43,970 nt of DNA from Eledone cirrhosa (lineage: Eukaryota): the NCBI GenBank assembly GCA_964016885.1, contig CAXHJY010000391.1, positions 1-43,970 on the forward strand. Reading direction: 5' to 3'. Position numbers and translations under genes: made by a program. Below the pieces are notes generated by a model that made no database searches, was not told where the DNA came from, and was given only the letters and a program-made list of their open reading frames with translations. Below, piece by piece: positions 2,508-42,444 of this stretch (positions within the stretch are counted from its first letter, which is position 1; each line of letters begins with the position of its first letter).

Positions 2508-2821
2508 TTTAAAGGTTAAACAAGGTTCAATGAATAAATCAAAGAATTAGTTTTACAATAGATTGGAAGCACTCAACTGTTATGGTTTTCCGGAGTTATT
2601 AATAATTCAAAATATTAACAAAAATAGAACTTCTTGTGATCAAGTATATTTTATTATACATATTTCAGATCTTAACCATCTACTATGTCAGGGTATGTCA
2701 TGCATTCTTTAATTTTATCTGATGAGGACGTACTGTTGAAGTTAGCTCAGTACCTCTGAAATATGTATGATAAAATATACTTTATCACAAGAAGTTCTAT
2801 TTTTGTTAATATTTTGAATTA
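2508..2821. mobile_element. Short fold-back PLE-like terminal fragment inserted in (TA)n
   Basis: 67-bp inverted repeat 2603-2669 / 2755-2821 (2 mismatches seen). The left arm has an extra ~95-bp tail (2508-2602). A hammerhead motif spans the spacer and right arm. (TA)n on both sides. Confidence 0.65.
2712..2776 (+). ncRNA. Minimal type I hammerhead ribozyme (degenerate)
   Basis: Stem I ATTTTAT(2712-2718)/ATAAAAT(2770-2776); CTGATGA 2719-2725; stem II GTACTG/CAGTAC with an imperfect base; GAAA 2758-2761; near-palindromic stem III ATATGTAT. The cleavage-site base is G here but A (valid UH) in the inverted arm. Confidence 0.6.
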
Positions 2822-4193
2822 ATATATATATATATATATATATATATATATATATATATATAGTAATAATAAATACAAAGACCAAAATCAAAAAAAGATC
2901 GATAACAAAGTTGTCAGAAGAACCCGCTTATGGTGAAAGCAATAATTTATTGCTTAAAATGTGTATATGACCGTGTATGTGTGTGTATACACAGGAACAG
3001 GGAGAGAGAGAGAAAATACCTAGGAAGTTCTTTGCAGGCATTACCTTCATATCAGTATTCAGAGACATTATACAAGTGGTCAGAATATTACGACTTTAAA
3101 ATATCGAGAAATAATTACATCTGAAATTTAACATATTTATGGATAATTCGTTCGGATAATTCACTAAGCGTTTGTTTTAGTTCTTAATTTGATTTTATAT
3201 TGACCTCTTTAATTTGTGGAGGCTTTTTTTGTAATGGTTTTAGACATTTTTAACATGTTATTCTACAGACGTTCAGTAGATTTAATCAGACGGAGAAATA
3301 TTATGATTCCTCTGGGCAATTTTCAAGTCAAATACAATAAATAGCATGTGAAAATTCAAACATTAACGCATGATTAAATTATCACGTTTTACATGATAAT
3401 CATATATATGTCATTAAATGCTGCAGATATCAAATTGTGTGACAGCTTTACGGAAGATTTAAATTTTCTTTCCATAAAGATAATCGAAGTATGATTTTAA
3501 CGTTCAACTGGCAATTTAATGTTAAATATTTTCTTCTATACCTGTATAAATTAAACATTGCAGATCTTCAAAACATGATATAGAATGAATGATATGAAAT
3601 TCTATTCGTTTTCTATGATACAAAGAAAAATAACACAGATATATATATTTTTTAATATGCTCTAGATATATTATAGATTTCTGTTAGCACATGACTAAAG
3701 TGTTTTGGTATGAGGTATTTGATCATTTGAAGTGATGCGTGATTTGCCAATACAGCAAAGATTAATTGGAAAACTAATACCGAATGAATCAGACTGTGAA
3801 GTGACATATATAAATGCTGCAAGGCATTCCTTTATACCAAGAATTCTAGAACCCTGACTACCATTATCAATAGAATATTAAAACCAAGTGGATATACTAG
3901 TGTGTGGCTATAACGTGATGCTTTCAATCTACGGTCTACATTCTTTAATTTTATGAGAAACCTACTAAATTCAACTAACATAAGTTCACCTAGGAGTTGA
4001 GATTTGCTATTATATATTGTGAAAATGTTCTTAAATTTCAATTCTATGATCTCTATGAAAGGAAGATATCCTACCACTCCAGAGTATGTTATTGCAGGTG
4101 AAATATTCGCGATATGATTATTACCAAAACTACTATTTCATTGTTCGTTTCCTCTATACATATTTTTTACACAGACACACGTGCATGCACACG

Positions 4194-7100
4194 TATATAT
4201 ATATATGTATATATATATATATGTATATATATATATGTATAGATATATATATATATATATATATATATGTATAGATATATATGTATATATATACATATAT
4301 ATATATATATGTATATATATGTATATATATATATATATATATATGTATAGATATATATATATGTATAGATATATATATATATATATGTATATATATACAT
4401 ATATATATATATGTATATATATGTATATATATATATGTATATATATATATATGTATATATATACATATATATATATGTATATATATACATATATATATAT
4501 GTATATATATGTATATGTATATATATATATATGTATATATATACATATATATATATGTATATATATGTATATATATATATGTATATATGTATGTATATAT
4601 ATGTATGTATATATATGTATATATATATATGTATATATATATATGTATGTATATATATGTATATATATATATGTATATATATATGTATATATATATGTAT
4701 GTATACATATGTATATATATATATATGTATATATATATATGTATATATATATGTATATATATATATATATGTATATGTATATATATATATATATGTATAT
4801 ATATATATATATATATATATATGTATATATATATATATATGTATATATATATATATATATATATATATATATATGTATATATATATATATATATATGTAT
4901 ATATATATATATATATATGTATATATATATATATATATGTATATATATATATATATATGTATATATATATATATATATATGTATATATATATATATATGT
5001 ATATATATATATATATATATGTATATATATATATATATATGTATATATATATATATATGTATATATATATATATGTATATATATATATATATGTATATAT
5101 ATATATATGTATATATATATATATGTATATATATATATATATATATGTATATATATATATATGTATATATATATATATATATATGTATATATATATATAT
5201 ATATATATATATATATATATACACATATATATATATGTATATATATATATATATATATATATATATATATATATATACACATATATATATATGTATATAT
5301 ATATATATATATACATTATATATATATATATATACATATATATATATATATATATACATATATATATATATATGTATATATATATATATATACATATATA
5401 TATATATATATATATACATATATATATATATATATATATATACATATATATATATATACATATATATATATACATATATATATATATATACATATATATA
5501 TACATATATATATATACATATATATATATATATACATATATATATACATATATATATATACATATATATATATATACATATATATATATACATATATATA
5601 TATATATACATATATATATACATATATATATATACATATATATATATATACATATATATACATACATATATATATATACATATATATACATATATATATA
5701 TATACATATATATATATACATATATATATATATACATATATATACATACATATATATATATACATATATATATATACATATATATATATATACATATATA
5801 TACATACATATATATATATACATATATATACATATATATATATATACATATATATATATACATATATATACATATATATATATATACATATATATATATA
5901 TATATATATACATATATATATACATATATATATATACATATATATATATATATACATATATATACATACATATATATATATACATATATATACATATATA
6001 TATATATACATATATATATATATACATATATATATATATATGTATATATATATATGTATATATATATATATATGTATATATATATATATGTATATATATA
6101 TATATGTATATATATATATGTATATATATATATATATATGTATATATATATATGTATATATATATATATATGTATATATATATGTATATGTATATATATA
6201 TATGTATATATATATATATATGTATATGTATATGTATATATATGTATATGTATATATATATATATGTATATATATATATATATGTATATATATATATGTA
6301 TATATATATGTATATATATGTATATATATGTATATGTATATATATATATATATGTATATATATTTATATATATGTATATATATATATATGTATATATATA
6401 TATATATGTATATATATATGTATATGTATATATATATGTATATATATATGTATATATATATATATATATGTATATATATATATATATGTATATATATATA
6501 TGTATATATATATGTATATATATGTATATATATGTATATGTATATATATATATATATGTATATATATTTATATATATGTATATATATATATATGTATATA
6601 TATATATATATATGTATATATGTAGTATATATATATATGTATATATATATATATATATATGTATATATATATGTATATATATGTATATATATACATATAT
6701 ATATATATATGTATATATATGTATGTATATGTATATATATATACATATATATATATATATATATATATATGTATATATATGTATATATATATACATATAT
6801 ATATATATATATATGTATATGTATATATATGTATATATATATATATATATATATGTATATGTATATATATGTATATATATACATATATATATATATGTAT
6901 ATGTATATATATGTATATATATACATATATATATATATATGTATATGTATATATATGTATATATACATATATATATATATATGTATATGTATATATATGT
7001 ATATATACATATATATATATATATATATGTATATGTATATATATGTATATATATATATATATATATATGTATATGTATATATATGTATATATATATATAT

Positions 7101-41869: not shown

Positions 41870-42133
41870 ATAAATAAGTAAATTAAATTAAATAAAATAA
41901 GATAAATAAATACATACACAAGCACATAAACACACACTAGTCACCCAGCAGACACAACACTATACACACTAGTCACACATCACACATATCACTATACACA
42001 CACGCAAACGCATGCGCAAAGAAGACAAAATAAAATAAGATAAACAAACAAGCAAATAAATAAATAAATATATAGACAGACTGAACAAAAAAAATGGCGT
42101 AGACATACAACACAACAGGAGGAACAATGATAT

Positions 42134-42198
42134 AACACCACTGACGATGTTGCAGATGTGCAACGAAAGATTTATGTAAACTATATATATATGTGTTT
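42134..42198 (+). ncRNA. Hammerhead-like motif in the PLE 3' region
   Basis: CTGACGA(42141-42147)-T-GTTGCA-gatg-TGCAAC-GAAA(42165-42168); possible stem III AG(a)TTTA/TAAACT then A; stem I unclear. Confidence 0.5.
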
Positions 42199-42444
42199 GT
42201 CTATATTGTATCTGTATTATTTTTGACCGCCGGTCAGTCAATGGCAACATTGAGGACCGAGTAAGTTAGATCGCAGATATATATATATAAAAGACAGCGA
42301 GAAGCGAAAACCAACCAAACAGTGAGTGTGTTCTGTTATTAATTCTGGCAATATTACGCAAATATGACCCTCCCCAAATATAACAATATCTGTTTCGACA
42401 CACGATTTCATATAAAAAACCTCGCAAAACTAATTCATCGCCGC

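What the first reader, a model, noticed from the sequence alone, without database searches (positions are those of the whole stretch)
2508..42444. Recurrent 'tailed hairpin in (TA)n' architecture shared by 4-5 unrelated PLE-like elements, folded at hammerhead motifs
Seen: the elements at 2508-2821, 11212-11442, 12210-12405, 37947-42444 and possibly 10466-11041 share no obvious sequence, yet all are inverted repeats flanked by (TA)n. In each, one arm continues into an unpaired tail (about 55-95 bp in the four clear cases) while the other stops and runs into (TA)n. Two are directly tied to PLE ORFs. In the three small clear cases the fold-back point lies in or beside a hammerhead-like motif. Established: PLEs make inverted 5'-truncated copies with a 3' tail, carry minimal hammerheads, and some target microsatellites. 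Inference: ribozyme helices act as RT stall/snap-back points and yield a class of tiny MITE-looking retro-hairpins that colonise (TA)n.
Basis: partly seen in the sequence, partly recalled or inferred. Interest (0 to 1): 0.8.

Follow-up and report, generated by a model that had tools for sequence, protein, structure and literature searches.

The report
Twin-primed Penelope hairpins ending at cap
These mirror-image stubs in TA repeats are the ends of five Penelope-type jumping genes, a known layout, but their two halves stop at one fixed base with an extra G, which likely shows that both cut DNA ends copy the same capped RNA up to its start rather than snapping back at a ribozyme.

Summary
The architecture is real. 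All five elements are head-to-head inverted repeats in (TA)n with a one-sided tail. All five link to Penelope-like (PLE) RT/GIY-YIG ORFs: four carry Hydra-clade motifs and one is Neptune-type. Exact tail motifs occur 2,209, 15,944 and 27,372 times in the genome. The inverted arm plus tail is a published PLE layout, and this scan noted it before on other DNA. The hammerhead-stall idea is not supported. In 70 tail-anchored loci per family, arm 5' ends pile up at one family-specific base: 64 nt before the ribozyme core (A), 5 nt before it (B), inside loop II (C); a pattern search puts it 63 nt before the core in D. That base is an initiator-like A preceded by an untemplated G (C: 89 G vs 11 A; control site 17 vs 83), sometimes on both arms. 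Both arms share subfamily variants while junctions differ, so hairpins are rebuilt at each insertion and are not MITEs. Best model: twin priming from two internal start sites on one capped sense RNA, run-off at the cap, then end joining. No RNA data were available.

The parts
2508..2602 (-). Family A tail (sequence between the two inferred RT start sites)
   Evidence: 2,209 exact tail motifs
2603..2669 (-). Family A tailed arm, ends at the base of stem II; GA microhomology at the junction
2668..2821 (+). Family A tail-less arm, starts 13 nt inside the family wall
2712..2776 (+). Type I hammerhead of A (core CTGATGA at 2719; this copy has G at the cleavage position, the other arm has A)
   Evidence: and sequence
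2862..2960 (.). B-related stub: tail in antisense joined to a sense arm with the same CAGAAGA core (non-overlapping type)
   Evidence: (80-82% to B)
10466..10633 (-). Family E tail, 168 bp
10634..10676 (-). Family E tailed arm (duplicated part)
10677..11046 (+). Family E tail-less arm, interrupted at about 10719-10903 by a SINE-like repeat in a (TAT)n tract
   Evidence: long copies L318, L320 lead into a PLE endonuclease
11217..11368 (-). Family B tailed arm (tail 11217-11293), ends exactly at the wall base
11369..11442 (+). Family B tail-less arm with hammerhead variant (core CAGAAGA at 11373)
12212..12268 (-). Family C tail-less arm
12270..12402 (+). Family C tailed arm (3' half of a U3-A8 hammerhead; tail 12322-12402)
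27604..29315 (+). 5'-truncated, tail-less long copy of family B with GIY-YIG end of ORF (to 28329) and 3' UTR
   Evidence: 52% to family C ORF residues 483-717
37947..40311 (-). Family D tail-less long arm (RT/EN fragments 38468-39793, 39794-40315); 16-bp duplication at the junction, 40276-40314
40312..42444 (+). Family D tailed arm; tail 42390-42444 encodes the ORF N-terminus; hammerhead-like core CTGACGA at 42141

Best explanation
The five elements are insertion products of Penelope-like retrotransposons whose two arms are likely separate cDNAs, primed from the two cut ends of a (TA)n target on one capped sense RNA. Shown: the tails run on into the 5' UTR or ORF start of tandem units; both arm 3' ends sit at a TAT-like motif; arm 5' ends pile up at one base with an extra G; arms share subfamily variants; junctions vary. 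Inferred: one primer starts at the outer site (giving the tail) and the other 55-170 nt upstream (no tail). The outer RT either stops where the inner primer began, giving a non-overlapping inversion as in L1 twin priming, or displaces the inner cDNA and copies the same RNA again, giving a hairpin. When the element protein engages the start sites near the 5' end of the mRNA, both cDNAs run off at the cap after 55-175 nt, gain a C opposite it, and are joined head to head by end joining with trimming or microhomology. This gives tiny hairpins. When it engages the downstream pLTR copy, long arms such as D result. The hammerhead is a neighbour of the RNA start, not the cause of the fold.
For: Wall zone (14 nt) holds 21 of 56, 18 of 44 and 75 of 102 arm ends in A, B, C. 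Base before the wall A among non-parent contexts, counted by eye: B 54 G, 18 A, 28 C of the first 100 (3,899 matches); C 89 G, 11 A (3,524); A 43 G, 5 A, 52 T (338); D 29 G, 5 A, 12 T of 46 (about 12 expected by the reversed control). Control 10 nt downstream in C, same TT|AG context: 17 G, 83 A (892 matches; Fisher p 3e-26). Both arms carry the extra base (ACTC-T/A-GAGT or ACTCGAGT) in L355-L362, 8 loci chosen for that junction. Same haplotype in both arms in 19 of 25 A and 48 of 51 C copies vs 4.4 and 17.7 expected; rare variants are one-armed. Non-overlapping pairs: 6 of 28 A, 7 of 22 B, 1 of 51 C. Frangieh 2024 (PMC11167929): two internal RT starts flank the tail, both strands are cut and extended, uncleaved RNA is the template. 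An extra G marks capping in L1 insertions (PMC11702581, passage).
Against: The transcription start is inferred from DNA only. Part of the G excess is templated by the opposite arm (about 13 of 54 in B, about 45 of 89 in C), and many control A's are microhomology. An RT could add C at any RNA 5' end, capped or not. In A, T is as common as G before the wall. A small second cluster of C arm ends at +7 to +12 (10 of 102) could reflect structure or a palindromic microhomology. Strand displacement by a PLE RT was not tested. Shared variants cannot tell one RNA molecule from two RNAs of the same source. The model does not itself explain why tail/tail pairs are rare (2 A, 1 B, 1 C).
Confidence: 0.78

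Rival explanations
1. RT stalls at hammerhead helices and the cDNA snaps back to copy itself.
For: The window copies of A, B, C join in or beside the motif; the walls of B and C fall at the start of stem I and in loop II; 10 of 102 C ends cluster at +7 to +12.
Against: A and D walls are 63-64 nt upstream of the core; density inside A's ribozyme is lower than just upstream; extra G on both arms; tail-less arm often longer, which self-copying cannot give; only 428 non-parent starts at B's cleavage site vs 3,899 at the wall, with few untemplated G (patterns differ in length).
Confidence: 0.06
2. Self-priming on an antisense template makes the head-to-head palindromes (Arkhipova 2013).
For: Palindromic junctions are common; proposed in PMC3846280 (passages).
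Against: The extra base lies at the sense 5' end of both arms; junction palindromes differ among copies and are explained by two ends at the same base.
Confidence: 0.05
3. Twin priming as above, but the fixed RNA 5' end is made by processing (nuclease or an unrecognised ribozyme), and the extra base is RT terminal transferase activity.
For: DNA alone cannot show a cap; the A and D walls (TC|ACT, AC|AGA) fit an initiator less well than TTAGTT/TCAGTC.
Against: All four walls are a pyrimidine followed by A; B and C subfamilies switch between TT|AGT and TC|AGT; Arkhipova 2013 notes an Inr-like TCACT in a rotifer pLTR, the same word as A's wall.
Confidence: 0.09
4. MITE-like units (DNA transposons or unit-copied hairpins) that target (TA)n.
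For: Similarity-ranked searches return near-identical full hairpins.
Against: That ranking is biased; tail-anchored samples show variable junctions; no arm-specific inherited variants apart from the TA edge; the tail breaks terminal symmetry; arms continue into PLE ORFs; the commonest short C variant also occurs in 1,912 copies that extend past the wall.
Confidence: 0.02

Closest known systems
EN+ PLE insertions with inverted pLTR and one-sided tail (Arkhipova 2013, PMC3846280; Craig 2021, PMC8557442)
   Same: Head-to-head inverted 5'-truncated copy, optional tail, junction palindromes, tail overlapping the 5' UTR or ORF start, Inr-like word in the pLTR.
   Different: Tails are 55-168 bp instead of 30-40; ORF-less minimal hairpins number in the thousands to tens of thousands; junctions carry a cap-like base that argues against the antisense self-priming model.
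Hydra clade of PLEs (Craig 2021, section 11)
   Same: RWR/RWK, DKT, CxCX5C linker, CxxC and CxH, no CCHH, (TA)n targets, hammerheads; family C unit is 3,542 bp with a 717-aa ORF.
   Different: Hammerheads are variants (U3-A8 core with long loop II in C, CAGAAGA core in B); units are over 3 kb.
Poseidon PAc in vitro TPRT (Frangieh 2024, PMC11167929)
   Same: Two internal RT starts define the tail; both strands extended; ribozyme cleavage not needed.
   Different: That work did not address inverted arms or their junctions in the parts I read; the host and clades differ.
L1 twin priming and cap-derived extra G (PMC11702581, passages)
   Same: Two primers, inversion, end-joined junction, extra G at a complete 5' end.
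   Different: L1 inversions do not duplicate sequence; here most pairs overlap, and priming is at fixed internal sites.
Minimal hammerheads of PLEs and non-LTR retrozymes (Cervera 2014, PMC4209133; bioRxiv 10.64898/2026.07.22.740005)
   Same: Opposite-strand hammerhead pairs 100-700 bp apart and the U3-A8 core are described.
   Different: Retrozymes are tandem repeats thought to use circular RNA; these are head-to-head and end at an inferred RNA start, not at a cleavage site.

Membership tests
EN+ PLE insertion | Arms continue into an RT plus C-terminal GIY-YIG ORF | tested here: met
   A: L175, L179, L180; B: L182, L184, window; C: L172, L354; D: window and L369; E: L318, L320 EN end only. 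Pfam gave only a weak RVT_1 hit for D (E 0.015); assignment rests on motifs.
EN+ PLE insertion | Partial-tandem pLTR with tail continuing into the next unit | tested here: met
   B L182; C 3,542-bp tandem; D 4,147-bp tandem. Not shown for A or E.
EN+ PLE insertion | Inverted 5' copy lacking the tail | tested here: met
   28 of 70 A, 22 of 61 B, 51 of 70 C tail loci within the aligned window
Hydra clade (A, B, C, E) | RWK-like and DKT motifs, CxCX5C linker, CxxC/CxH, no CCHH | tested here: met
   All seen in C; DKT, linker, CxxC/CxH in A and B; E only by similarity of its EN end
Hydra clade (A, B, C, E) | Placement in an RT phylogeny with reference Hydra proteins | not tested
   No reference proteins fetched
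Hydra clade (A, B, C, E) | Canonical hammerhead in the pLTR | tested here: inconclusive
   A canonical by eye; C U3-A8 variant found by descriptor and fold; B core variant; Rfam negative; activity not testable
Neptune/Nematis (D) | CX2-5CxxC linker and CCHH in the endonuclease | tested here: met
   CTNRKCIIC and C-C-H-H pattern in the ORF; Neptune vs Nematis not resolved
MITE / DNA transposon | Terminal inverted repeats at both ends, copied as a unit | tested here: not met
   One-sided tail, variable junctions, mirrored subfamily variants
MITE / DNA transposon | Target-site duplication | tested here: inconclusive
   Not readable inside (TA)n
Non-LTR retrozyme | Tandem units each with a complete hammerhead | tested here: not met
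   Small elements are head-to-head; C hairpins hold half a ribozyme

The most novel reading that the evidence does not exclude
The junctions record the general integration mechanism of endonuclease-bearing PLEs, seen here in two clades: a dimeric RT copies one capped, uncleaved sense RNA twice from two internal sites, with strand displacement. This one rule would produce the tail, the inverted pLTR, the direct pLTR (a full copy regenerates the stretch from RNA start to tail) and tens of thousands of run-off hairpins. In family C the RNA start splits the hammerhead, so only the downstream pLTR copy could self-cleave. Some junctions (ACTC|AGT) rebuild an initiator, so hairpins might themselves be transcribed and act as SINE-like donors.
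Probability: 0.55. Interest if true: 0.72.

Novelty: new variant of a known kind. Interest (0 to 1): 0.5.

Why it matters
How PLEs make their tandem and inverted structures is called unresolved in Craig 2021, and Arkhipova 2013 left open whether the template is sense or antisense. Thousands of junctions here give a sequence readout that favours a capped sense template and two primers, and they name an exact base to test by CAGE or in vitro. The hairpins would also be misread as MITEs or microRNA-like repeats by annotation pipelines. Extrapolating from the contig C1 samples gives roughly 20,000 tiny hairpins for C, 3,400 for B and 800 for A.

Tried and rejected
Whole-window Rfam scan: swamped by miRNA matches to TA repeats; three restricted scans found no hammerhead. 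Inverted-repeat finder: swamped by TA. Single-strand folds of the motif regions were no better than shuffles. First breakpoint parse over-extended at junctions and was redone. My first reading that the hairpins were unit-copied families was dropped after unbiased sampling. My note that family C lacks a hammerhead was wrong: the regular expression missed the U3-A8 core (corrected). A short-only lineage in C was looked for with one variant and not found. The 'untemplated only' sub-counts entered were rough (control G nearer 9 than 11) and are not relied on. One discordant C copy (L161) is an artefact of an adjacent hairpin. D has too few short copies in its sample for a wall histogram. No wall test was run for E.

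Full report
Observation. After masking TA arrays, self-BLAST shows five inverted pairs at the stated places, each with extra sequence on one side. I call them A (2508-2821), B (11212-11442), C (12210-12405), D (37947-42444) and E (10466-11046). The genome is 3.0 Gb and rich in TA repeats; earlier notes call it an octopus, which I did not test. A, B and C are large families: 40 of 40 scored candidates were full-length in each DNA search. Exact tail motifs occur 2,209, 15,944 and 27,372 times, with 0 for reversed patterns. A motif spanning D's arm-tail border occurs 1,827 times; E gave 1,364 first-look candidates.

Identity. Long copies lead into PLE ORFs for all five: A (L175, L179, L180), B (L182, L184, window 27604-29315), C (L172; a 3,542-bp tandem unit with a 717-aa ORF in L354), D (4,147-bp tandem unit), E (endonuclease end in L318, L320). 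A, B and C show the Hydra motifs listed in Craig 2021 (section 11 read); D has the Neptune/Nematis linker and CCHH. No tree was built. In tandem units the tail runs on into the 5' UTR (B, C) or the ORF start (D), as Frangieh 2024 describes (parts 1-2 of 4 read). The inverted copy with a one-sided tail is described in Arkhipova 2013 and Craig 2021 (passages read), and opposite-strand hammerhead pairs in Cervera 2014 (part 1 of 4 read). So the layout is known.

Unit copying or rebuilding. Similarity-ranked copies look like one fixed hairpin, but that ranking is biased. I therefore took the first exact tail matches on contig C1, 70 loci per family (one match each in A and B was skipped because it lay inside a locus already taken). 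Junctions vary widely. Nine B loci were another element carrying only part of the B tail and were dropped before counting. Pooling ranked and tail-anchored loci, recurrent variants are in both arms in 55 of 73 cases (A) and 65 of 74 (C), whereas rare variants are one-armed in 57 of 64 (A), 53 of 55 (B) and 41 of 50 (C). Haplotypes match between arms in 19 of 25 A and 48 of 51 C copies, against 4.4 and 17.7 expected. The arms are thus made from one template lineage at insertion and are not homogenised later. This rules out MITE-like copying for A and C.

Where the arms end. A 14-nt zone holds 21 of 56 (A), 18 of 44 (B) and 75 of 102 (C) arm ends of tailed/tail-less pairs; counting all arm ends, the 40 nt upstream hold 7, 2 and 1 against 24, 21 and 81 in the zone. 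The modal base is an A after two pyrimidines: TC|ACTACC, TT|AGTTT, TT|AGTCC or TC|AGTCC. Relative to the hammerhead core it lies at -64 (A), -5 (B) and +43 to +45, inside loop II (C); in D a pattern search points to AC|AGACTG at -63. Inside A's ribozyme the density of ends is 0.13 per nt, lower than the 0.29 just upstream. Non-parent starts at B's predicted cleavage site number 428 against 3,899 at the wall (patterns of unequal length). The window's D junction is in the RT coding region.

The extra G. Listing the bases before the wall A in non-parent contexts gave, by eye, 54 G, 18 A, 28 C of 100 in B (12 of the C's are a TC|AGT subfamily), 89 G and 11 A in C, 43 G, 5 A, 52 T in A, and 29 G, 5 A, 12 T of 46 in D, in loci that are 18% G and 32% A. 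A control in C at the same TT|AG context 10 nt downstream gave 17 G and 83 A. Some G's are templated by the opposite arm (about 13 in B, 45 in C) and most control A's are microhomology, so the raw contrast overstates the effect, but about 41 (B) and 44 (C) G's remain unexplained by either template. Eight loci picked for it show the extra base on both arms, with a tail on one arm only, and four show a single G joined to TA repeat or to a tail-only partner (L355-L362, L365-L368). An extra G is the mark of a copied cap in L1 insertions (PMC11702581, passage). The likeness to the initiator consensus TCAGTY is recalled, not from a call.

Mechanism. A cDNA that folds back can only recopy what it already holds. 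Yet the tail-less arm is the longer one in 21 of 28, 13 of 22 and 23 of 51 pairs, and folding back from the tail-less arm cannot make a tail. In 6 of 28 A, 7 of 22 B and 1 of 51 C pairs the tailed arm is only the tail, the pattern expected if the outer RT stops where the inner primer sits. Tail/tail pairs are rare (2, 1, 1). Together with the in vitro finding of two start sites and extension of both strands, the simplest model is two primers on one capped sense RNA, with displacement of the inner cDNA in the overlapping class and end joining in the middle. Short hairpins need no separate lineage: the commonest short C variant is also in 1,912 copies that extend past the wall. Steps not shown: the cap, the promoter, displacement, one RNA versus two.

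Ribozymes. A has a canonical core with stems readable by eye. B has CAGAAGA, shared by a related stub at 2909-2958. C has a U3-A8 core with a long loop II, found by descriptor and recovered as a three-way junction by folding; two of its six long copies shown differ at core position 3. Activity is untested.

Novelty. Nine full-text searches found no paper, among those listed and the parts read, that describes run-off PLE hairpins with a cap base or twin priming in PLEs; older subscription papers (Evgen'ev and Arkhipova 2005, Schostak 2008, Lünse 2017; recalled, not seen) and supplements were not checked. The retrozyme preprint (part 1 of 5 read) concerns tandem repeats. Earlier notes of this scan report the same architecture on other DNA, some with the ideas of an RNA start or of separate copying of the two halves; a look-up for cap and twin priming returned nothing.

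Noticed in passing
L114, L115, L119, L129, L130, L255, L261-L263: Nine of 70 B-tail loci belong to another repeat that has captured about 50 bp of the B tail; most end in a GC hairpin plus CTAG, which resembles a Helitron 3' end (recalled).
   Followed up: no
window 10719-10909, 19673-19793, 21309-21528, 24060-24595, 26291-26814: Many copies of one SINE-like repeat, often inserted in (TAT)n or ATT tracts, including inside PLE arms.
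   Followed up: no
window 2343-2487: A 145-bp element flanked by (TA)n on both sides, not an inverted repeat.
   Followed up: no
window 20247-20320: Fragment 80% identical to the arm end and tail of family D.
   Followed up: no
window 36700-36860: 50-bp tandem duplication followed by a CTGACGA...GAAA motif next to a TA array; possibly another PLE end.
   Followed up: no
L369 (family D unit): The D ORF has a long asparagine-rich stretch before the RT, like the N-rich inserts in rotifer Penelope ORFs (PMC3846280); this copy is frameshifted.
   Followed up: no
L312, L320 (family E): Hammerhead-like motif with CCGATGA core, long stem II loop and palindromic stem III; the window's E arm starts 4 nt before its predicted cleavage site.
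   Followed up: partly
L356, L360, L096, L097, L161: Hairpins of different families sit side by side in the TA tracts flanking each other; L356 flanks hold a further C-related hairpin family.
   Followed up: no
window 18442-18804 and 22417-22806: Short ORF remnants resembling non-LTR retrotransposon ends (by eye).
   Followed up: no
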